From a virus (lineage: Duplodnaviria; Caudoviricetes): DNA of 64,000 nt. The position numbers and the translations under genes were made by a program. Location: IMG/VR virus record IMGVR_UViG_3300049172_000088, positions 1 to 64,000 of that record. One strand, 5' to 3'. Shown here piece after piece: positions 11,694 to 53,434 of this stretch (positions are counted from its first letter, which is position 1; each line of letters begins with the position of its first letter). Under the pieces are notes generated by a model. The model did no database searches. It was not told where the DNA came from and saw only the letters and a program-made list of their open reading frames with translations.

Positions 11694-11757
11694 GTACCTG
11701 CCGAGCCGCGACGAGCCCCACCCTGACCTGCCATGCCGAGCCATGCCCAGCCGTGAA
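11694..11757 (-). ncRNA. Orphan pentamer-repeat guide (vrRNA-like) unit
   Basis: Intergenic; 10 pentamers (11703-11752) followed on the minus strand by GGCA-GGT; same grammar as the main array. Confidence 0.7.
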
Positions 11758-11797
11758 CAGCTTGGGCGTCGAAGCTGTGCGCCTCGATTTCTGCTGG

Positions 11798-25642: not shown

Positions 25643-26469
25643 GGGTCACCTGCCAGTCGGTCGGCCGCGCACGAGCGGCATGGCTGTTGGAGGAGGTGGA
25701 TCGGGCACTTCTCGGCCGGCCCGGCCACGGGCAGGAAGTCCCTTGGCCGCTCACGGACGGCCTTGGCCACGTAGTTGAGCCGCTTGTCGGGCTTCACCAA
25801 CCGGCCGCCGAGGATCTGCTGGCGCACGCTGGCGGCGTGGTTCGGCGAGACGGCGCGGCCGGTGAGCTCGGCGAGCAGGTCGGTGATCGTCTGATCGATC
25901 TTCAAGTCGTCGTCTGTCGGCGTCGCGCGCGCGTCACCTACGGAAAGGGACGACGACTGAGTTACTCCCTTCGAGTCAAAGACCGAAGGTCTTTGACTCT
26001 TGGGATGGGACGGGACGGGGGGACTCGCACCCGATTCAGATGACCGATCGGAGTACCGATCGGTGGAGCGATGTTCTCCCTGGCAGTAGGGGCAGTCAGG
26101 GTCGCTGATGCCCCTCGCCTCGTGCCATCGGCGATGGTTGCCGATCCGCCCGCCCGACGACTTCTTGCGTCGCTCTGTCACCACCTCCGTCTTCTTCAGA
26201 TTCCGGACCGTGCCGTCGCCGTCGGCGTCCCATTCGTGGAACTGGTATCCGCCCCGGACTCGCCTCCACAACCCCGCGCGCACGAGCTCTTTCGCCAACT
26301 CGACCTGACCTCGGCTCAATGACGGGATCTGGTGGTCTGGCACGAAACCATCGGTGAGATGGTGCGCCGACCACGAGCCAGCCACTGTCCACAGCCCGAT
26401 CGCAGCGAGCGACGCCGCTGTTTGCTTGGGGTGAGAATGAAGTCCGTCGTCTACCCGGAACCACGTCAC
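25639..26469 (-). CDS. Phage replication initiator protein
   Basis: TWFRVDDGLHSHPK...IGLW..AGSW...TDGFVP...YQFHEW; an upstream start at 26559 is also possible. Confidence 0.75.
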   Translation of the reverse strand: MTWFRVDDGLHSHPKQTAASLAAIGLWTVAGSWSAHHLTDGFVPDHQIPSLSRGQVELAKELVRAGLWRRVRGGYQFHEWDADGDGTVRNLKKTEVVTERRKKSSGGRIGNHRRWHEARGISDPDCPYCQGEHRSTDRYSDRSSESGASPPVPSHPKSQRPSVFDSKGVTQSSSLSVGDARATPTDDDLKIDQTITDLLAELTGRAVSPNHAASVRQQILGGRLVKPDKRLNYVAKAVRERPRDFLPVAGPAEKCPIHLLQQPCRSCAADRLAGDP

Positions 26470-32305: not shown

Positions 32306-35300
32306 GTCGCACGCTCCGCGATCTGCCGCAGGTTGGCGATCCCGGTGTCCGTGGCCTCGGCCCGGTTGCAGGCGGCGACGTAGCCGGGGTACTCGGCGGC
32401 GAGGCGGCGTCGGTTGTGCGGGTCGGCGCGGGCGATGAGCGCGATCAGGTCCTTGGTGAACGAGCCGGGCTCCATGCCGGGTTCGCCGTAGTGCCACAGG
32501 ACGTGGTGGGCGATCGTGGGCGTGATCTCCTCGGAGCCGAGCTCGTCGTCGCGGGCGGCGAGCACGCGCTTGATCGGCCCGTAATGGTGGTGGAGGAATG
32601 CCACCTCGTAGCCAGTCCCACCCGGCGCACCGGAGTGCAGGCGGATCCCTCCCGCGTACTCGGTCGCGAGGTAGCGGACGCCGTGGGCGTCTTCCCACAG
32701 CTCACCAGCCTTGGGCGGTCCTTCGGCAGGCACGAGCCGCGTGATCTCGACGGCGCTGAACTCGTGCTGAACCTCCTCCCGGTCGGTTCGGGCCCCCTCG
32801 CGGTACTCGTAGACCAGAGAGCCACCATCGCAGTTCAGGACTCGCGCGCCCCTGATGACGATGTCCACGATCTCGCCGGGCTGGTACTTCATGCCGTGGC
32901 CTCCTGGATGTGCTGGCCGGCGAGCAGGCCGACGAGGGCGAGCGTGGGTGCGTCGGCGTCGGCCTCGCGGGCGATCCCGCCGAGGTGGGTGGCGGTGCGC
33001 ATGGCGACCCAGCCGACGATGCTGGGGTCGAGGTCGCAGAACTCGCCACGCAGGTCGTCGCCGATGATCGCGCCGAGCGTGCGTACGAGGTCGGCTCCGT
33101 CGTCGGTCAGCTCGCCGAGCGCGTCGGTGATCGCGGTGTGGGTGGCTTCGACCCAGCCGGGCCAGACCGGTGCGTACGTCATGTCCTCCCCCTCACACAT
33201 GGCAATCGACGGCGATCAGATACGCGGAGTCGGCGAGGGACTCGATGTAGGCGTTCGCGACTTCGAGGTAGCCGATCCGATCGCCCTCTCTGTCCGTGGA
33301 TGCTCCGAACCAGCCCATCTCGCCGGGCGCCATCCACTTGCCCTCGACCGTGATCAGCGCGTAGCCCGGAACCGCCTGCGCCCGCGCCAGCTCCACGAAC
33401 AGCCCACGCGGCTTGGCGAACTCTCCGATCCGGCATGTGAACGAGTCGATGTCAGAGCCCTTGATCGCCTGCACGCGCTCCTGGGCGCCGTACTCGACAC
33501 GGGCACGGTTCCACGCTGCCCGCTTCTCCTCGACGTCCTCGGTATCGGCGGCCTCCTTCTCGGCGCGCTCGGCGAATGCCCTCCACGGCTGCGCCTCAGG
33601 CAGGCCGTCGGTGAGCTTCTCCCAGGAGTCGTACTCGGCGTGGGCGCGGTTCGCCTTCTGCAGCCGCATCGCGTTGAGGTCCAGGTGCTTCTTCTGGCCG
33701 CCGTCCACCCATCCGGCTTGGTCCCTCTTCGGGGAGTCCCAGTCGCGGCGAGGTGCCCACTCGGCGCACGCGGCGTACGCCTCGAAGTCGGTGGTGGCGA
33801 AGTAGCCACCCCATCGGCCGCCGATGCGCCAGTAGTCCCACTTGCCGTCCGGGTTGCGCGTGGAGAGCGTATATGCCTGGTCCGTGGCCTCGTCGTAGTG
33901 CAGCGGCTCGGAGTCGTCGTCGTACCGCTCGTTGTGGAACTGGACGATGTCTCGCCAGCGGATCGGGTCGGGCAGGGAGTGGAACAGGCGTGCATCTTCC
34001 GCCTGCTTCTGTCGCTGCACCTCGGGCGTCTCCTTCGACGAATCCGACGACCACCCAAGCTGGTCCGGCTTGTAGGGCAGAATTCCCGTGCCATCGGCGA
34101 AGTCCTTGGCGGTCCGCTTGAGCGACCTGTACAGCCAGAACTCCGACGCCTCACCTTTCTCGTAGTCGCGGTACTCCTCGACTTCGAGGTTCTCGTCGAA
34201 GGGCGCCAGGGCGGCCTCCAGCTTGCTGGCGTCGTCGAGGCACACGATCACGGAGAAGTGGGTCATCGGCTTCCACCCTTCGCGAGAGCGGCGCGCAGCT
34301 TCAGCGCCTGGCGTCCGACGCGCTTGGCCAGGAGGAGGCCGCGCTCGCGCATCGTCTGCCGCAGGTGCCGCTCGGTTCGGGACCCGCCGGTGCGAAGCGG
34401 CGCCATCCACTCGTCGGTATCGGTGATCGCCCTGCGCGCCTGGTCGTACGCGGTGACGTCGGCCGCCGTGATGCGCGGCATGCTCGCCGTCGCGGGCTCC
34501 GGGTCGATCGGCGGGGCGTCGCGGCGGACGGCCCGCATCGGCTCGGTGACGGCCGCGGCCCGGGCGCGGTGCTTGCCGGCCATCAGAGGTCGCCCTCCTC
34601 TTCGGGGTCGCGCTGCGCGTCGGCCAGTTCGACGACGCGGGCGACGGCCTTGTCCATGGCCGGGTCGGGCGCGGCGATCTGCGCGGCGACGGACTGCGGC
34701 GCCTGAGTGGAGTCCTGGGCCGGCGCCGGAGCAGTCATGGTGCGGGCATCCTCGGCGGCCTTGAGCCGGTCGCGGATCTCGCGCAGGTCGCCGCCCCAGA
34801 ACCCGGCCTGGGCCTGGATCACGTCGGCGAGGTCGGCAGCGGCCGACACGCGGGTGAGGTCACCGGTGGGGATCTGGATGCGGAGCGGCCCGAAGTCGAA
34901 CGAGCTCCAGCCGTCCTCGGTCAGCGTGTGCCGCACCTGGTCGGGGGTGACCTGGGCGTAGATGAAGACGTTGAGCGGGGTCTGCTCCATCAGGAGCCCT
35001 CCAGGCAGGTACGGGTGTGGATGCCGCCGGGCACGGGCGCGCCGCAGCGGCAGAGGGGGATCTCGCGCGCCGTCAGCTCTTCGGTGACGGCGGGCCGAAT
35101 CACGTGGTCGAGCTGAACGGCGCTGCCCGCGTTGGCGATCGAGGTCGCGGTGTTCCACATGCCGATCAGCTCGTCGGTGCTGGCCTCGTGGATGCCCTCG
35201 ATCACCGCGCCCCACGGGTTTGGATCGGCCTCGGCGAGGGCGGGCTTGGCCTGGCGCGGAGTGCGGCTCAGCAGCACGTACAGGACGGCGACGATCGCGA

Positions 35301-38110: not shown

Positions 38111-38656
38111 TCAGACGGTGTAGCCGCCGTTCCAGTCCCAGCTCTTCTTGGCCAGCTCGACACCGGTCGACGTGGTCACCCACGCCGTGTCGTTGTTGTT
38201 GTTGTAGAACTGGCCAGCGGTGCCGCAGTCGGGGTCCGAGTTGGCGTACAACCGGTACTCGGTGCCGACCTTGTAGTTGCCGCCCCACCTGGCACCGTTG
38301 AAGACCGTGACGCTCTCGCCGTTCGCCAGCTCGGTGCTGGTGCCGGGCCCGGGGAGGTCGGTGATCTTGTAGGTGTTGCAGGAGTGGGCGTCGCCGTCCG
38401 CGGTGCGGCTGTGCGCCCAGTCGTCCTCGACCAGCACGTTCGCGATGTCGAGGGTCACGCCGGAGACGTTCTTGAACGTGACGAACTCGCGGTTGCGATT
38501 GCCCACGGTGTCGGTGCCCATGGCGTCGGTGCCGACCCGCACGATCTGGAGCTGGCCGGCGGTGGGCGCCGGAGCGGCGCTGGCCGACGTGGCGGACGCG
38601 ATGCCGGTCAGCATCAGCGCCAGGGCGCCCATGAGGGCGATGAGGGTCTTCTTCAT
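38111..38656 (-). CDS. Secreted lamin-tail-domain-like protein
   Basis: Signal peptide MKKTLIALMGALALMLTG...ASA; NREFVTFKN...LANGESVTVFNG...YNNNNDTA. Confidence 0.7.
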   Translation of the reverse strand: MKKTLIALMGALALMLTGIASATSASAAPAPTAGQLQIVRVGTDAMGTDTVGNRNREFVTFKNVSGVTLDIANVLVEDDWAHSRTADGDAHSCNTYKITDLPGPGTSTELANGESVTVFNGARWGGNYKVGTEYRLYANSDPDCGTAGQFYNNNNDTAWVTTSTGVELAKKSWDWNGGYTV

Positions 38657-38732
38657 CTCGATCTCTCTGTGAGGTTGGGACCGGTGACCCGGCCATGTGC
38701 CGCCCCATCTGGAGCGGACGTTCAGGGCCCGC

Positions 38733-38933
38733 TCAGGCGGGCAGCGCGGCGCGGCGCCGTCGGCGGGCCGCCGCCAGGAACGCGCGGGCGGCCGACCGGC
38801 CCTCGCGGGCGAACGCGGCAGCGGCGGACTGGTGGTTGCGCTTGTGCCAGATCCGGCGCCGCTGACGCGCAGTGATCTGGCTGCGGCCGGTCTGCGCGAA
38901 GTAGCGGGAGGCGCGGTCGAACTCGTCGAGCAT
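38733..38933 (-). CDS. Small basic hypothetical protein
   Basis: 66 aa; ITARQRRRIWHKRNH. Confidence 0.55.
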   Translation of the reverse strand: MLDEFDRASRYFAQTGRSQITARQRRRIWHKRNHQSAAAAFAREGRSAARAFLAAARRRRRAALPA

Positions 38934-38945
38934 CGGGTGGTCCTC

Positions 38946-39158
38946 TCAGGCGGCCTGTTGAGCGGGGCGGATGTACGGGGCGAGGAGCGCGGCCAGGCGA
39001 GTGCACTGCTCCTCGGTGAGGGGCGGATCGTGCTCGCCGTCGCGCCAGCCGGCCTCGAAGGCTTGCTGCGGCGTGGTGCAGATCTCCTGCCTGCCACGCC
39101 CCGCCGCACCGAGACGCGCCTTGCCGTACCGCGCCGGGCCTGGGTCGTTAGTGGTCAC
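38946..39158 (-). CDS. Small phage protein whose 5' part overlaps an orphan guide unit
   Basis: ICTTPQQAFEAGWRDG..DPPLTEEQC.RLAALL; GTGA overlap with the upstream gene. Confidence 0.6.
   Translation of the reverse strand: MTTNDPGPARYGKARLGAAGRGRQEICTTPQQAFEAGWRDGEHDPPLTEEQCTRLAALLAPYIRPAQQAA
39087..39140 (-). ncRNA. Orphan pentamer-repeat guide (vrRNA-like) unit
   Basis: 9 pentamers (39096-39140) followed by GGCA-GGC on the minus strand. Confidence 0.72.
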
Positions 39159-39577
39159 GCCGCGTCCTCACCGACGTCGCGGCGGACCATGGCGTAGAAC
39201 TCGGAGAACTGCTCGTAGCGACGCCGGAGGGCCTTCCATTCGCGCTCCATGTCCTTGAGCAGGAGCTGCGCCGTGAACGGGTCCGTGGTCACCTTGTCCA
39301 CGGGCTCGTACACGTGGCCCTTCTCCGACCGAACGGCGTGGAACGCGCGCACGCTCTGCTCGGGGTTCTTCTCGTCGGCCTCGCGGTAGACGATCCGAAC
39401 CGACCGGATGAGCTGGTGCGCCTGCTCGCGTCGCCACGCCTCGCCGGCGACCGCGTCGTTCCACTCGAACCGGTCGTGCAGCGGGTGCTGCTCGTCGCGA
39501 GCTTCGTCCACCACCAGGGCGGGCGTGAGCTGCGCGTGCCGGTCGTAGATGGCCTGGAGCTGCTCTCGGAGACTCAC
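39155..39577 (-). CDS. Accessory protein coupled to the RAMP-like gene
   Basis: 140 aa; LTPALVVDEARDEQHPLHDRFEWND..AGEAWRREQAHQLIRSVRI; GTGA overlap with the upstream gene. Confidence 0.8.
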   Translation of the reverse strand: MSLREQLQAIYDRHAQLTPALVVDEARDEQHPLHDRFEWNDAVAGEAWRREQAHQLIRSVRIVYREADEKNPEQSVRAFHAVRSEKGHVYEPVDKVTTDPFTAQLLLKDMEREWKALRRRYEQFSEFYAMVRRDVGEDAA

Positions 39578-40206
39578 GAGCTGAGGACCTCCACTTCGCG
39601 GGTCGGGTCGATCTTGTAGGTGCCGAAGTCGCCGTCCCGCTCCGGCCGCCACTCGCCGACGCCGACGCCCATGCCGCCAGCGTCGATCAGCGACAGGACA
39701 GAGCCGCGGGTGAGGGCGGAGGTGACGTAGGTGACTTCCAGGACGGCGGACCACTCGCGGAACTCGGGCCGGTACCTGAGGTCGGTGCCGCCGCGGCCGA
39801 CGGTGACGACGTCCTCGCGCATCTGGGCCTCGCCGTCGATGCGGGTGAGGGCGCGGCCGTCGTCGCCGACCTCGCCGCCGAAGAACAGGAACTGCTTGAG
39901 GGCGGTCATGGTGACGCCGGAGTAGAAGCGGGCGCCGCCGATGGTGGCGGCCTTGAACGCGATCGACGGGAAGCCGGGCGAACCGTCCTTGAGCCGGTAG
40001 TAGGCGGCCTCGTACTCGGCGTGCGGGTCCTTCGGCTGCTTGGGCGACTTGCGGCCCTGCATCGCGTCGAGCATGGCCTTTTTGGCCTTTTCGGAGAATC
40101 TGTGGACGATCAGAGGCGTTGTGCCCACGATCGGGACAGAGATCGTTTCCGCCGCGATCCGGTCAATCTGGACGATCGCGTCGTCCGACTTTCGGGCAGC
40201 ACACAT
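39574..40206 (-). CDS. Cas7/RAMP-like protein (Vipr-like)
   Basis: 210 aa from ATG 40206 with a GAAAGG RBS. Has a beta strand + G.TPL start (IVGTTPLIVH), GFPSIAFKAA, LRYRPEF..W, and a C-terminal Gly-rich loop (GGMGVGVGEWRPERDGDFGTY) as in RAMP proteins. Confidence 0.8.
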   Translation of the reverse strand: MCAARKSDDAIVQIDRIAAETISVPIVGTTPLIVHRFSEKAKKAMLDAMQGRKSPKQPKDPHAEYEAAYYRLKDGSPGFPSIAFKAATIGGARFYSGVTMTALKQFLFFGGEVGDDGRALTRIDGEAQMREDVVTVGRGGTDLRYRPEFREWSAVLEVTYVTSALTRGSVLSLIDAGGMGVGVGEWRPERDGDFGTYKIDPTREVEVLSS

Positions 40207-40238
40207 TGCGCTAACCTTTCGATGAGAAGTGAGTGATG

Positions 40239-40270
40239 GGGTCCGGACGCCGTGCAGGGCGACCGGACCC
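40239..40270 (-). terminator. Hairpin between the array and the RAMP-like gene (terminator or processing site)
   Basis: GGGTCCGG (40239-40246) pairs with CCGGACCC (40263-40270). Confidence 0.5.
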
Positions 40271-40282
40271 TTCTTCATGCGT

Positions 40283-41323
40283 GGGCCGCGCCTGCCATGA
40301 CGGGCCATGCCGAGACGTGCGGAGCCGCAACAGGACGAACCGCGCCTGCCCTGCCAAACCCAGCCGTGCCTAGTCCCGCCGTGACATGCCGGACCGCACC
40401 ACACCGAGCCATTCCTGCCACGCCAAGCGACGCCAAGACCCGCCCTGACAAGACGAGCCGTGCCGAGCCATGCCTGCCGTGCCGCGCGATGCTGTGACGG
40501 ACCTAGACGGACCGCGCCAAGACCCGACTGCCGGGCCACGCCTTGACTAGCCGAGACCAGACCCGCCATGTCCTGCCTGCCGTGCCATGCGGAACCTAGC
40601 CGGGACACACCACAACAAGCCCCGCCTTGCCGCGCCTGACAAGCCGGGCCGCACCATGCGGAGCCGAGCGGAGACTTGCCACGCCACACCGTGCCTGCCG
40701 GACCTGGCCATGACTGGCCGCGCCTCGCCGGACCTCGCCTCGCCACGCCTGCCGAACCACGCCGTGCCCGAACGTGACAAGCCCTGCACAGAACAACCGC
40801 GCCTGCCACGCCAAGCCACGCCAAGCCCGACCGGGACCTGACTGGACATGCCGCGCCATGCCATGACTGCCAAAGCTGGCCGTACGGCGCCACGCCGTGA
40901 CTAGCCCTGACCCGCCAAACCGGGCCTGCCGAACCGTGCGATGCCGAACCAAGCCCGGACACGCCCCGCCGAACCCCGCCTGCCACGCGAAGCCATGACC
41001 AGCCGCGCCGCGACGAGCCCTGCGAAGCCATGCCTGCCAAGCCAGGCCACACCCTGCCTGGCCGAACCGCGACCTGCCACTCCGCGCCTGCCAAGACAAG
41101 CCAAGCCCCGCCGAGCCGAGACCCGCCGGACCGAACCACGCCTGCCATGACGGGCCAAGCCGTGACCTGCCGGGACTTGCCCAGCCTTGCCTGCCTCGCC
41201 ATGCCTGAACTAGCCCAGCCCGAACATGCCCCACCCCGCCAGGACTGCCTCACCACACCAAGCGGAACCCCGCCGAGCCCGGCCACATCTCGCCTGGACC
41301 GGCCAAGCCTGACCATGCCTGCC
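40283..41323 (-). repeat. Pentamer-repeat guide array: 18 units of 9-14 x (GGY/GTC)NN with GGCA separators
   Basis: Parsed by hand: 191 pentamers + 18 tetramers = 1027 bp, exactly 40297-41323. One more GGCA and 2 pentamers lie at 40283-40296. Confidence 0.93.
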
Positions 41324-41445
41324 ACGTTGATCGTCAGAAGGCTCTTCCTGGCGTTGCAGTTGCGGCACCGGCCGCGCCAGCTCTCGTTCGAGGAGTAGCA
41401 CTTGCCACAGGTCCACGGCGGCTGCTTCGGCGGCTGCGGCGTCAC
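41324..41445 (-). CDS. RanBP2-like zinc-finger ORF 5' segment reading into the array
   Basis: WTCGKCYSSNESWRGRCRNCNARK; GTGA overlap with cro; the frame stays open through the array. Confidence 0.5.
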
Positions 41446-41714
41446 GCTGCACCCGCCTCAGCCTGGGTCTCCTCCGCCGGCTCCCCGTAGGGATTCGCGA
41501 GGATGGCGCGGCGGTCGGTGATGCCCAGTGCCCGCAGCATCGCGGTGAAGACCGTGGGGCTTACGTGGGTCCGGCTCCCCAGTTCGACGTGGGCCAGGTA
41601 GGCCCTGCTAATTCCGATGAGGTCGGCGCACGCCTGGGTTTTGATCCCGCTGCGTACTCGGATCTCTCGGAACGCGGGTCCGTTGACCGCGACCATCGTG
41701 GGGGTTCTGGGCAT
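41442..41714 (-). CDS. Cro-like XRE HTH regulator
   Basis: FREIRVRSGIKTQACADLIGISRAYLAHVELG; divergent from the repressor. Confidence 0.85.
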   Translation of the reverse strand: MPRTPTMVAVNGPAFREIRVRSGIKTQACADLIGISRAYLAHVELGSRTHVSPTVFTAMLRALGITDRRAILANPYGEPAEETQAEAGAA

Positions 41715-41891
41715 GCCAGAAGTTTAGGCACAGCTTGCCACAGCTTTCAACAGCTTCCTCTAGAAACATTTATAGCTGTGCCATGTGGCGGCAAGGTAAG
41801 GGTTTTGTGGCATGCATCAGGGCTTATGTCTCACTGGGTAAGTCTGGAGATGTGCTTACCTGTGTCAGGGTGTGTCTGTCATGCTGTCTCC
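41715..41891. promoter_or_regulatory. Lysis/lysogeny divergent promoter-operator region
   Basis: AT-rich; ACAGCTT three times at an exact 10-bp period (41730, 41740, 41750); inverted AGCTGTGC at 41774-41781. Confidence 0.7.
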
Positions 41892-42380
41892 ATGGACAGA
41901 GAGACAGCCCGACAGGCGCTCGCCGAACGAGTGCGCCGCAGGCGACTCGCTCTCGGTTGGTCCATCGACGAAGCCGCCGAACGGGGCAGCATGAGCCCCA
42001 CCACGTGGACACGCGTCGAAGAGGCCAAGAAGGTACGCGACCTCACCTACGCAGGCATCGAACGCGCGCTCGGCTGGCAGCCCGGCAGCGTCGACCAGAT
42101 CGCCGAAGGAGGCGAGGCAAAGGAGGCGGAAGGCCTCCAAGGCATCGTCCGCTTCACCGGAGAGCAAGCCCTTCAGGTCGCCAGGCAGCTACCGCCGGCC
42201 GCGCTTCACGAGATCCTCTCGGAGCAGATCGATCCCCAGCTCCGGAAAATCATCGACTCCTGGTCGCTGCTACAGCCGTGGCAGCGGAACATGGTGCACG
42301 GCGTGCTGGAGCAGATTCTCAGCCAATCCCCCGAAACGGCAGGTAAACCGACACGAACCGAGGAGCGTCGCACAGGGTAA
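41892..42380 (+). CDS. Immunity repressor (XRE HTH)
   Basis: LAERVRRRRLALGWSIDEAAERGSMSPTTWTRVE...IERALGWQPGS. Confidence 0.85.
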   Translation: MDRETARQALAERVRRRRLALGWSIDEAAERGSMSPTTWTRVEEAKKVRDLTYAGIERALGWQPGSVDQIAEGGEAKEAEGLQGIVRFTGEQALQVARQLPPAALHEILSEQIDPQLRKIIDSWSLLQPWQRNMVHGVLEQILSQSPETAGKPTRTEERRTG

Positions 42381-42430
42381 CAAACACGTCACAACTGCAT
42401 GCGAGGGCTGGAAAGTGACGCCCGTGGAGC

Positions 42431-42922
42431 GTGCTATGGATGCCGACGCCTGGGACGCACACCACCTCAACGGGGAGGCGCACAGCACCCATGCAACACA
42501 GGCACCAAGGGCCCGCGGGGGTCGGGCTCACAGCAGAACAGCTCGCCACCACCATCCAGCAGCGCGCACGTCGCGCCGCCACGGCCGCCCTCTGGGTCAG
42601 CCGGGCGACCGGACTGGTGGAGCAGCTGCAGGCCGAGAACGCCGACCTGCGCCAGGAAGTCATCTACTACCAGCGCTGGGCGGCGTCCACCATCGGCCTC
42701 CAAACGAACGAGACACCGCCGCAGCACTACGTCGAAGCGCTACGACGCGCTCAGCCTGAGCCGTACAGGAGCGTCAACGTCGACGTCGACGGCCAGCCCT
42801 ACAGCGCCGCCCTGGGCCAGCACCCCGAGACGGCGCCGGACCCCCTACGCGAGCTGGCCTGCTGGCAGGCTCTGGTGACGGCCGTACGGGCAACCCGCGC
42901 CGCCCTGGCAGCCGAGGCATGA
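42431..42922 (+). CDS. Hypothetical protein in the repressor operon
   Basis: Coiled-coil LVEQLQAENADLRQE; start uncertain; overlaps the next gene. Confidence 0.5.
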   Translation: MLWMPTPGTHTTSTGRRTAPMQHRHQGPAGVGLTAEQLATTIQQRARRAATAALWVSRATGLVEQLQAENADLRQEVIYYQRWAASTIGLQTNETPPQHYVEALRRAQPEPYRSVNVDVDGQPYSAALGQHPETAPDPLRELACWQALVTAVRATRAALAAEA

Positions 42923-43749: not shown

Positions 43750-45174
43750 CAAGGGAAGCGGGATGAGGTCGACGCTGGCCGGGTCGAAGCCGGGCCCGCG
43801 CTTCGTCTGCGGGAGGATGATCACGCGGTAGAGGGCCCGGACGGTGTCGGCGCGCACGTCGATCGGGGTGGCGTCCCACTGCTCGCGGGTGATGCCCGCC
43901 ATGCGGACCAAGAGCCGCTGGCGGGCATTCTCCACGTGCCGGTTCCGCAACTCGGTGATCTTCTTGTCGAACGAGGCGATGGACGCGGCCACGTCGGCGA
44001 CGTCGAGGCCGGGATGGTCGGCGAGGTTCCGTAGGGTCTGTTTCGTGTCGGCCTTGCGCCGCTCCAGGGCGACGATCTCGGCCGCCACGCCTGGCTCCGG
44101 CCCGAGGACCATCGACAGCAGGTCTGGGTCTTGCAGCCGTCGCAGTACTCGCCCCGTCACATACTCGTCGAGGTGGACGAGGCTCCGGGACACCTTCTTG
44201 GAGCACTCCGGGTTGTTGCAGTGGTAGAGCCGCATATCCTTGCGGCCGCGACGGCCGTTGGCGGGCTTCGTCCGGACGCCGACGCTGCAGGAGACGCACT
44301 CGGCGACGCCGCTGAGGAGGTAGATGCGTTCCTTGCCGTAGGCGTGGGCGCCGTTCTCCTCGAGGAGGCCCTTCAGGGTCTCCCACTCCTCACGGGATGC
44401 AGCGGCAGGCCAGATGGCCGGGACAAGCTGGCCGTTGCGCTGGATGAGGCCGGCGATCCTCGGCGACCGGATGATCTTCTTGAAGACGACCGCCCGCCAT
44501 CGGCCGCCCTCAGTCGTGGTGGACACGGAGTTCAGCCAGCGGATCACTCCGGCCAAGCTCTGCCCTCCGAGCAGGCGCTGGAGTCCGTCGCACAGGATCG
44601 GGAACTCGGTGGGATGGGCCTGGTTCGTGTCGTAGATCGGCTTTCCGCTGATGCCCGTCTTGCCGGTGGGCACGCCGTAGCCGAAGGGCCGCTTCCCGCC
44701 GCTCCAGGCCTCCCCCTTGGCTGCCTTGGCGTCCACGCCGCGTTTCACCCGGCGCGAGGTGCTCGCCGACGACTTGCACGCCTGCGCGACCTCGATGCGC
44801 AGGATGAAGCGATCGTCTTCGCTGGCGAGGTCACGCACGCCCTGGGGGGACGCGAGCGCGATCGATCGGTCGTCGGCGAGCTTGAGTAGCTTCTCCAGGT
44901 CCCATGGCTGCCGGATCAGGCGGTCGCCGTGCCAGACGAGCACGCCGTCCACCTCACCGCGCTCGATTGCGTCGAGGAGCCTGTCCCAGGCCGGCCTCTT
45001 GCGGTTACGCTGCCAGGCAGAGCGGGAGTTGTCCTTGTAGATGTGGCGTTCGTCGATGGGCCAGGCGAGGCGGTCGGCAAGCTGGCGGCAGTCCTCCTCT
45101 TGCCGCTCAACCTTCTCCACTGATCCATCGGGCGCGTAGCTGAGCCTGCAGTAGATCGCAGCGGATTTCGGCAT
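43696..45174 (-). CDS. int: Large serine recombinase (integrase)
   Basis: AAIYCRLS (catalytic Ser), YKDNSRSAW, DRLIR, recombinase domain, and a zinc ribbon (LLSGVAECVSC...YHC). Confidence 0.95.
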   Translation of the reverse strand: MPKSAAIYCRLSYAPDGSVEKVERQEEDCRQLADRLAWPIDERHIYKDNSRSAWQRNRKRPAWDRLLDAIERGEVDGVLVWHGDRLIRQPWDLEKLLKLADDRSIALASPQGVRDLASEDDRFILRIEVAQACKSSASTSRRVKRGVDAKAAKGEAWSGGKRPFGYGVPTGKTGISGKPIYDTNQAHPTEFPILCDGLQRLLGGQSLAGVIRWLNSVSTTTEGGRWRAVVFKKIIRSPRIAGLIQRNGQLVPAIWPAAASREEWETLKGLLEENGAHAYGKERIYLLSGVAECVSCSVGVRTKPANGRRGRKDMRLYHCNNPECSKKVSRSLVHLDEYVTGRVLRRLQDPDLLSMVLGPEPGVAAEIVALERRKADTKQTLRNLADHPGLDVADVAASIASFDKKITELRNRHVENARQRLLVRMAGITREQWDATPIDVRADTVRALYRVIILPQTKRGPGFDPASVDLIPLPLSPEQAGVHSKQRVDLHV

Positions 45175-53310: not shown

Positions 53311-53434
53311 TAGGCTGAGGGTGTTCGTGGTTCGGCACGGCCTGGTGCGGTCCGGCGTGTCTAGGCTGGTCATGGCTTGGCACGTCCCGGCAGGCGAGCC
53401 CAAGGCGGGCGGGGTCAGGGATCCTGCCCGCCTT
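53311..53434 (+). ncRNA. Stand-alone pentamer-repeat guide gene (vrRNA-like) with its own promoter and hairpin
   Basis: TAGGCT (-10-like) at 53311; 12 pentamers at 53329-53388; GGCA-GGC; hairpin AAGGCGGGC...GCCCGCCTT at 53402-53434. Confidence 0.82.

What the first reader, a model, noticed from the sequence alone, without database searches (positions are those of the whole stretch)
40297..41323. The NN code is codon-phased and spells fragments of other phages' core genes
I read the reverse complement of the NN pairs as codon positions 1-2 with the third base skipped. 130/191 first positions are purines, as in real coding sequence. Unit 40582-40636 gives GT AT GA TA GG AC AC AA CC TT GC = VIDYGTTNPFA, resembling the DYGTTNPF nuclease motif of PBSX-type large terminases. 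Unit 40872-40926 gives KWVATVYLPNG, resembling tyrosine-integrase N-terminal arms; this phage uses a serine integrase. Unit 40351-40415 ends PVMGATEI, similar to MGxxEI HTH proteins. Skipping the wobble base would make targeting insensitive to synonymous escape. The peptide identities are my pattern recognition and rely on choosing among two-fold ambiguities.
Basis: partly seen in the sequence, partly recalled or inferred. Interest (0 to 1): 0.9.

Follow-up and report, generated by a model that had tools for sequence, protein, structure and literature searches.

The report
Phage VIPR guide-RNA array, decoded
The 1-kb five-base repeat is the guide-RNA array of a VIPR system, a CRISPR-like phage weapon first described in 2026, and several of its guides do spell, in codon phase, conserved motifs of rival phages' terminase, capsid protease and integrase genes.

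Summary
Window 40293-41323 is 18 units: a 4-mer TGCC followed by 9-14 pentamers NN-GCC, 191 pentamers in all. The first N is a purine in 130 of 191.

The gene just downstream (39574-40212, minus strand) is a Vipr RAMP protein. It is homologous to the solved SUSP1 Vipr and keeps its RNA-contact residues. The array is a 'staggered' vrRNA array of a VIPR system (bioRxiv 10.64898/2026.04.26.720920, .720927 and 10.64898/2026.10.15.759431). The published rule for VIPR is NN pairing with every third target base skipped, usually the wobble base.

Direct tests gave:
- The unit read as VIDYGTTNPFA hits 112 IMG/VR contigs, all in frame at the G(I/V)DYGTTNPFA motif of large terminases.
- The unit read as KWVATVYLPNG matches 22/22 in three Actinomadura tyrosine integrases.
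- The third flagged unit ('HTH') found nothing.
- Four other units gave 0-4 hits, which is background.

The phage lacks or has diverged from each target, so it does not target itself. One guide matches 20/22 of the catalytic motif of CBASS cyclases, a lead for RNA-guided anti-defence. Earlier notes of this scan report VIPR-type arrays in at least 266 other genomes.

The parts
40293..41323 (-). vrRNA array: 18 contiguous guide units, read on the minus strand as (GGY-NN)9-14 each closed by GGCA, whose following G is the first G of the next unit ('staggered', 1-nt overlap)
   Evidence: The same architecture lies next to vipr homologues in 14 other loci, always on the vipr strand. Fig. S18 legend of 10.64898/2026.04.26.720920.
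39574..40212 (-). vipr gene (RAMP/Cas7-like, 212 aa; phrog_4652)
   Evidence: Profile of 13 homologues hits PDB 36pp_D 'SUSP1 Vipr protein' at E 2.3e-14. AF2 model pLDDT 83, with Csm3/Cas7 as top Foldseek hits at E 8e-6. H37, R148 and E187-W188-R189 align with SUSP1 H17, R138 and D177-W178-R179.
39155..39580 (-). vap-like accessory gene (about 140 aa, phrog_15946), coupled to vipr
   Evidence: Conserved directly after vipr in 8 loci. AF2 model pLDDT 80; only weak winged-helix-like fold matches, so inconclusive.
40578..40636 (-). guide unit decoding to VIDYGTTNPFA; target is the first nuclease-domain motif of large terminases
   Evidence: 112 IMG/VR hits to the 9-pair core, all in frame. 1 has 22/22, 60 have 21/22, 44 have 20/22.
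40868..40926 (-). guide unit decoding to KWVATVYLPNG; target is the N-terminal arm region of tyrosine integrases of Streptosporangiales prophages
40475..40528 (-). guide unit decoding to VAIVGYGANP; target is the C-terminal motif of S78 prohead proteases
   Evidence: The phage's own S78 protease lacks the motif.
40416..40474 (-). guide unit decoding to T[KN]T[KN]PL[KN][DE]V[DE][IM]; candidate target is the catalytic Asp motif of CBASS oligonucleotide cyclases
   Evidence: 20/22 in frame in 3 of 401 genomes, 0 in the reversed-pattern control. Motif TKTKPLRDVDI is present in 104 of 120 homologues. 20/22 in an Actinomadura type III CBASS operon.
40347..40415 (-). guide unit (13 pairs) flagged as 'HTH'; target not found
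39087..39140 (-). solo vrRNA-like unit (about 10 GGY-NN pentamers ending GGCAG) just downstream of vap
40236..40270 (.). GC-rich inverted repeat between the array and vipr (possible terminator or processing hairpin)
   Evidence: Read directly; not tested.

Best explanation
This is a VIPR (Viral Interference Programmable Repeat) locus of an 83.7-kb actinobacterial phage, whose host is probably Actinomadura or a relative. It lies in the early operon, downstream of a cro-like gene. The minus strand is transcribed into an array of 18 vrRNAs built from GGY-NN pentamers and punctuated by GGCA. By homology with the SUSP1 system, one Vipr protomer binds each pentamer, hides the GGY, and presents the NN pair. 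The presented pairs base-pair with double-stranded DNA in which every third base is skipped, and binding silences transcription. The skipped base falls on the codon wobble position, so each guide in effect reads an amino-acid motif. Guides here read highly conserved motifs of genes that the phage lacks or carries in a divergent form: the Terminase_6N-type terminase nuclease motif, the S78 prohead protease, and tyrosine integrases of Streptosporangiales prophages. The array therefore acts as a broad weapon against competing phages and prophages without hitting the phage itself. What is shown here: the array anatomy, Vipr homology, conserved RNA-contact residues, in-frame near-perfect targets for three guides, and no self-target. 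What is inferred from the literature: transcription and processing of the array, filament formation, DNA binding, and silencing.
For: Array anatomy. Vipr identity: with the papers. The array sits on the vipr strand in 15 of 15 loci, from 36% to 81% Vipr identity, whether upstream or downstream of vipr-vap. Targets: terminase, 112 of 112 hits in frame; protease, 118 of 120 at 20/20; integrase, 22/22 in three Actinomadura genomes. Empirical background for 18-base cores: 0, 0, 3 and 4 hits, without consistent frame or gene. Local skip-rule control: only skip 1 gives hits for these guides, and shuffled pair orders give none. Self-avoidance: best own-genome match 0.716 against 0.703 for shuffles; no Terminase_6N and no tyrosine integrase in the phage; own protease matches only 11/20. 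Independent case in a relative: a guide of L004 matches 22/24 in frame in a gene of a related phage.
Against: Convincing targets were found for only 3 of the 10 units tested, or 4 with CBASS. With guides of 20-22 informative bases, matches of 80-90% are expected by chance in gigabase searches, so only near-perfect hits count. There is no expression or processing data for this phage. The type II 3' tail with pseudoknot is absent. The vap partner has no confident fold assignment.
Confidence: 0.9

Rival explanations
1. The decoded peptides are chance look-alikes. The NN pairs carry no target information, and the array is a structural or protein-binding repeat, for example an RNA that wraps a ring protein as the trp leader wraps TRAP.
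For: The 54-nt modal unit with 11 triplets resembles the TRAP site (my early idea). Composition is barely better than uniform. 6 of 10 tested units have no target.
Against: Two cores have 112 and at least 120 exact hits against 0-4 for the others. Every hit is in one frame on the sense strand of one gene family. There are 22/22 integrase matches. The adjacent protein is a Vipr homologue with its GGY-binding residues conserved.
Confidence: 0.03
2. The repeat is protein-coding. A 623-aa ORF (39574-41445, minus) runs from a RanBP2-like zinc finger through the array into the Vipr domain, giving a fusion protein with a repetitive linker.
For: One minus-strand frame has no stop across the array and is in frame with both flanks. 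GenBank annotates the homologous stretch of phage Philus as the N-terminus of gene 52.
Against: A stop-free frame arises in 14% of within-unit pentamer shuffles. There is no extra periodicity at 15 nt. The array is broken by stops in L003 and lies downstream of vap in most relatives. Unit lengths of 49, 59, 64, 69 and 74 shift the frame relative to the punctuation. Vipr homologues start at the equivalent of residue 11-20.
Confidence: 0.03
3. It is a VIPR array, but the broad terminase and protease hits are incidental. The real targets are a few specific rival elements not yet sequenced, and motif-level matches simply reflect that guides were copied from some rival's conserved genes.
For: Most units have no hit. 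Provirus G006 is hit by the protease guide (20/20), the integrase guide (20/22) and perhaps a primase guide (17/20). The papers describe guide sets that converge on one element.
Against: The guides sit on the most conserved motifs, and the terminase hits span GC 0.28-0.74. This is also what the SUSP1 work reports for a recombinase active site. This reading differs from the main one in emphasis rather than in kind.
Confidence: 0.3

Closest known systems
VIPR systems with 'staggered' vrRNA arrays (bioRxiv 10.64898/2026.04.26.720920, fig. S18 legend)
   Same: A lone Vipr RAMP gene plus an accessory gene. Guides are GGY-NN pentamers of 9-16 repeats. Neighbouring vrRNAs share 1 nt, seen here as GGCA followed by the G of the next GGY. 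The locus is phage-borne, follows the 1-nt skip code, and does not target itself.
   Different: I could read only the figure legend, not the figure or tables, so I cannot say which of the seven types this is or whether actinophage members are listed. Processing is unverified here. The array is long (18 units) and sits upstream of vipr, whereas most relatives have it downstream of vap.
Type II VIPR of Escherichia phage SUSP1 (PDB 36pp; 10.64898/2026.04.26.720927)
   Same: Homologous Vipr (profile E 2.3e-14). The thumb YRP and G-loop G(D/E)WRP motifs are conserved. Same pentamer code, and guides aimed at catalytic motifs of a rival's essential gene.
   Different: SUSP1 vrRNAs are about 100 nt with an invariant 3' tail and pseudoknot and are spaced apart. 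Here there is no tail, only GGCA. SUSP1 guides converge on one satellite's recombinase; here they spread over terminase, protease, integrase and possibly CBASS.
Class 1 CRISPR Cas7/Csm3 backbone on crRNA
   Same: RAMP fold (Foldseek E 8e-6 to Csm3). One protomer binds per short RNA segment, with thumb-induced base flipping.
   Different: The period is 5 nt, with 3 bases hidden in the guide and 1 skipped in the target, rather than 6 nt with 1 flipped. There are no cas1/cas2 genes, no repeat-spacer array, and no nuclease partner in the locus.

Membership tests
VIPR system | Vipr protein: minimal RAMP homologous to characterised Vipr | tested here: met
   hmmsearch of alignment A1 against PDB sequences: 36pp_D SUSP1 Vipr, E 2.3e-14 over residues 14-197. 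AF2 model with Foldseek: Csm3/Cas7 RAMPs.
VIPR system | Residues that hold the GGY motif (SUSP1 H17, R138, D177, W178, R179) | tested here: met
   They align with H37, R148, E187, W188 and R189. All are invariant or nearly so in 13 homologues, with D to E the only change.
VIPR system | vrRNA of 9-16 tandem GGY-NN pentamers, conserved GGY and hypervariable NN, on the vipr strand | tested here: met
   18 units of 9-14 pentamers. The constant triplet is GGC, GTC or GGT in 166 of 191, and NN entropy is 3.80 of 4 bits. The strand is shared with vipr in all 15 loci.
VIPR system | Targets obey the 1-nt skip rule, with the skipped base on the codon wobble position | tested here: met
   Terminase, protease and integrase guides. 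Skips of 0, 2 and 3 give no hit at 2 mismatches or fewer in the same DNA.
VIPR system | No self-targeting at 80% NN match or above | tested here: met
   one unit reaches 0.80, with its shuffles at 0.76; the mean equals the shuffled mean.
VIPR system | Adjacent vap accessory gene with a DNA-interaction fold | tested here: inconclusive
   The conserved partner gene is present. Its fold gives only weak winged-helix-like matches, E 0.2 or worse.
VIPR system | vrRNAs are expressed, processed, bound by Vipr, and silence targets | not testable with these tools
   No RNA data were examined; needs small-RNA sequencing and reporter assays.
Type II VIPR (SUSP1-like) | Invariant 3' tail with pseudoknot after the repeat tract | tested here: not met
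   Units abut one another with only GGCA between them. No Rfam match. So this is not filed as type II.

The most novel reading that the evidence does not exclude
Part of this actinophage's VIPR array is an RNA-guided anti-defence tool. Unit 40416-40474 reads the catalytic motif TKTKPL(K/R)DVDI of a clade of type III CBASS oligonucleotide cyclases. These are carried on integrative elements of Actinomadura and Nonomuraea. The phage would silence that immune operon at infection. I did not find this target class in the main texts of the VIPR papers.
Probability: 0.45. Interest if true: 0.6.

Novelty: new member of a known kind. Interest (0 to 1): 0.4.

Why it matters
The locus gives a concrete, checkable target map for a staggered-array VIPR in a high-GC actinophage. 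This group is absent from the main text of the three VIPR preprints. It shows that single guides can read protein motifs shared by more than a hundred otherwise unrelated phages: the terminase nuclease motif and the prohead protease. That means VIPR can work as a broad-spectrum weapon, not only against one cognate satellite. It also shows that such arrays are mis-annotated as protein genes in deposited Mycobacterium and Gordonia phage genomes. The CBASS match, if real, would extend VIPR from phage-against-phage conflict to silencing of host or mobile-element immunity.

Tried and rejected
- Tweety gp54 repeats: a 12-bp coding repeat, unrelated.
- Early ideas of a TRAP-like ring-binding RNA, a Rho site or two-tier G-quadruplexes were dropped once Vipr was identified.
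- Rfam: no family in 38500-42500.
- Megablast of window 1-25000 against phage records: no match.
- Cross-targeting among 6 related VIPR phages and 9 loci: no excess over shuffles at any skip, apart from one 22/24 in-frame hit of an L004 guide on a related phage.
- Guides of the other VIPR phages against the 2.6-Mb terminase/protease loci: 5 hits against 0.3 for shuffles, none convincing.
- NN composition likelihoods: codon positions 1-2 read antisense to the vrRNA fit best in 15 of 18 units, but the gain over uniform is only 0.06 bit per pair, and chi-square against codon usage is 42.
- IMG/VR cores of units 40293, 40637, 41143 and 40347 gave 3, 4, 0 and 0 hits, without consistent frame.
- Metagenome scans for 40347 and 41035 gave 0 hits and 1 junk hit.
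- Unit 41035 matches 17/20 in frame in a D5-like primase of provirus G006. This is suggestive only.
- Five alphaproteobacterial hits of the integrase core fall in about 260-aa ORFs carrying VATVYLPNGNP. I think these are exonuclease III-like, from memory and untested, and treat them as coincidental.
- The self-matches of 7/10 and 8/12 claimed in a sister note are within noise.

Full report
WHAT IS THERE. Window 40293-41323 has strong 5-nt periodicity, with a super-period near 54 nt. A dynamic-programming parse resolves 18 units on the + strand. Each unit is TGCC (TGAC once) followed by 9-14 pentamers NN-GCC, where the GCC is sometimes GAC, ACC or GCG. That makes 191 pentamers, with unit lengths of 49-74 nt. 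On the minus strand the units read (GGY-NN)n closed by GGCA, and the next base, G, opens the following unit.

CONTEXT. The window is the first 64 kb of an 83.7-kb virus record. The array lies in a minus-strand operon. A cro-like HTH gene (41442-41714) is followed by a 41-codon RanBP2-like zinc-finger ORF that has no stop of its own. Then come the array, a GC-rich hairpin, and a 212-aa gene (39574-40212, phrog_4652). A partner gene of about 140 aa follows (phrog_15946). A 623-aa ORF spans the finger, the array and the 212-aa gene. This is not evidence of coding. On the GGY strand few stops are possible, a stop-free frame appears in 14% of within-unit shuffles, there is no 15-nt signal, and the homologous array of L003 is interrupted by stops.

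THE ARRAY TRAVELS WITH THE GENE. Homologues of the 212-aa protein were fetched from IMG/VR (12 loci, 36-81% identity). DNA similarity also found them in Mycobacterium phage Philus and Gordonia phage UmaThurman. Every one of these loci has a pentamer array on the same strand. It may sit upstream of the gene, after the gene and its partner, or between them. Low-GC members use GGA-NN with the punctuation TGGCAG. In GenBank the arrays are annotated as protein: the N-terminus of Philus gene 52 and UmaThurman gene 40.

IDENTITY. A profile of 13 homologues hits one solved structure, 36pp 'SUSP1 Vipr protein', at E 2.3e-14. An AlphaFold model (pLDDT 83) matches Csm3/Cas7 RAMPs. That led to three 2026 preprints on VIPR systems. 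They describe a lone RAMP (Vipr), an accessory gene (vap), and vrRNAs of 9-16 GGY-NN pentamers. One Vipr protomer binds per pentamer and sequesters the GGY. The NN pairs base-pair with DNA in which every third base is skipped, and the skipped base usually falls on the wobble position. Natural targets are rival phages, satellites and prophages. Architectures include 'staggered arrays' in which adjacent vrRNAs overlap by 1 nt (fig. S18 legend), which is what GGCA followed by G looks like here. The SUSP1 residues that hold GGY (H17, R138, D177, W178, R179) align with H37, R148, E187, W188 and R189. These are invariant or nearly so among the 13 homologues. The type II 3' tail and pseudoknot are absent, and Rfam finds nothing.

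TESTING THE CODE ON THIS ARRAY. I wrote each unit as NNx on the + strand and dropped the one or two pairs nearest the GGCA end. This left 18 specified bases, for which about 3 chance hits are expected in IMG/VR.

- Unit 40578-40636, core for DYGTTNPFA: 112 hits. All are in one frame on the sense strand of ORFs with a median of 425 aa. The five ORFs scanned carry Terminase_6N and/or Terminase_3 domains. The motif sits near residue 250, where the nuclease domain begins. The wobble bases vary freely, and locus GC ranges from 0.28 to 0.74. Over all 11 pairs, 1 hit is 22/22, 60 are 21/22 and 44 are 20/22.
Of these, 118 are 20/20. All read HRGDVAIVGYGANP near the C-terminus of ORFs with a median of 229 aa; the two scanned are Peptidase_S78 prohead proteases.
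- Unit 40868-40926: one IMG/VR hit, in a provirus tyrosine integrase (20/22). In one-genome-per-species bacterial contigs there are 11 hits. Five are in frame at the N-terminus of 430-534-aa ORFs in Actinomadura (three genomes at 22/22, spelling KWVATVYLPNG), Nonomuraea and Streptosporangium. The IMG/VR counterpart of this ORF family was confirmed as a tyrosine integrase by Pfam. The other six are five alphaproteobacterial ORFs of about 260 aa carrying VATVYLPNGNP and one junk hit.
- Unit 40347-40415, the 'HTH' example: 0 hits in IMG/VR (9 pairs), 0 in metagenome contigs (10 pairs), and 0 at 3 mismatches or fewer in 201 genomes of the Actinomadura order.
- Units 40293, 40637 and 41143 gave 3, 4 and 0 hits with no consistent frame or gene. 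Together with unit 40347's 0 hits, these are my empirical background. Unit 41035 gave one junk hit in metagenomes.

In the 2 Mb of fetched loci, the terminase and protease guides hit only at skip 1, never at skips 0, 2 or 3, and shuffled pair orders give no hit. An independent case comes from a relative. A 12-pair guide of L004 matches 22/24, in frame, near the C-terminus of a gene of a related phage.

SELF VERSUS NON-SELF. No guide matches the phage's own 83.7 kb above the shuffled level (0.716 against 0.703). The phage has no Terminase_6N-type terminase and no tyrosine integrase, but it does have a large serine recombinase. Its own S78 protease lacks the targeted motif, with a best in-frame match of 11/20. 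The self-matches of 7/10 and 8/12 claimed in a sister note are therefore noise.

STRAND. In every verified target the + strand reading is the gene's sense strand, so the vrRNA is antisense to the mRNA. Composition favours that orientation in 15 of 18 units, though weakly.

A LEAD BEYOND THE PAPERS. The full 11-pair pattern of unit 40416-40474 was searched at 2 mismatches or fewer in 401 genomes of the order around Actinomadura. It hits 3 genomes, against 0 for the reversed pattern. All three hits are in frame at KT..KPL(K/R)DVD(M/I), a motif I read from general knowledge of these enzymes as the metal-binding Asp pair. The genes are SMODS/CBASS oligonucleotide cyclases. In 104 of the 120 closest homologues the motif is TKTKPLRDVDI, equal to the guide at 10 of 11 codons. 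In an Actinomadura genome the gene sits in a TRIP13-like AAA / Cap8 / HORMA / cyclase / 4TM-effector operon, which I read as type III CBASS, next to an integrase and excisionase. There the match is 20/22. About 0.8 chance hits are expected at this stringency in that much DNA. The case therefore rests on frame, strand and motif conservation, and I give it about 45%. I found no mention of CBASS, terminase or protease targets in the main texts of the two VIPR papers I searched for those terms; their data tables were not read. A sister report of this scan that made a similar 'defence-gene' claim was later marked down, which argues for caution.

VERDICT. But the class and its code were described in April-October 2026, and earlier notes of this scan report VIPR-type arrays in at least 266 other genomes. 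This locus is a new member, a staggered-array VIPR of an actinophage. It has an informative target set and one untested anti-defence lead.

Noticed in passing
L001 2499-2757 (Mycobacterium phage Philus gene 52, N-terminal about 110 codons); L002 2797-3115 (Gordonia phage UmaThurman gene 40): Deposited annotations call vrRNA arrays protein-coding. Philus gp52 is a Vipr with an array read as an N-terminal extension. UmaThurman gp40 is an array. BLAST also hit the array region in cluster F1 (Cheoctovirus) phages BobaPhett, Mattes, SwagPigglett, James and others.
   Followed up: partly
window 41323-41445 (-): A small ORF is translationally coupled to the cro-like gene and carries a W-x-C-x2-C-x3-N-x6-C-x2-C (RanBP2-type) zinc-finger pattern. 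It has no stop codon before the array. It is not present in the relatives examined, where the array lies elsewhere. Its function is unknown.
   Followed up: no
window 53330-53395 (+); window 11700-11760 (-); window 39087-39140 (-): Further GGY-NN runs ending in GGCAG lie outside the main array. One has about 12 pentamers, one is two short units of 4-5 pentamers, and one has about 10 pentamers right after vap. They are candidate solo vrRNAs. Their targets were not searched.
   Followed up: partly
L010 5300-5720; L012 3680-3935: Low-GC VIPR loci use GGA-NN pentamers but keep the punctuation TGGCAG. The third constant base seems to follow genome GC content, while GG and the GGCAG boundary are conserved.
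   Followed up: no
G006 (IMG/VR provirus, 91.9 kb): 25757-25785, 38473-38504, 34986-35014: One provirus is matched by the protease guide (20/20), the integrase guide (20/22) and, weakly, unit 41035 in a D5-like primase (17/20, in frame). It is a possible natural rival of this phage.
   Followed up: partly
L290, L292, L293, L296, L298: The integrase guide's 9-pair core also matches VATVYLPNGNP in about 260-aa ORFs of Alphaproteobacteria (19/22 overall). I think these are exonuclease III-like, from memory and unchecked. It is an example of a coincidental motif-level match.
   Followed up: no
L304 4072-7823: An Actinomadura operon of AAA (TRIP13-like), Cap8, bacterial HORMA, SMODS cyclase and S_4TM effector lies next to a tyrosine integrase, an HTH_17 excisionase-like gene, a methylase and a T4SS pilin gene. 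This is CBASS on an integrative element.
   Followed up: partly
G000 44353-44580 (-): A large serine recombinase (Recombinase domain, 507-aa open frame) is the phage's only detected integrase-type gene.
   Followed up: partly
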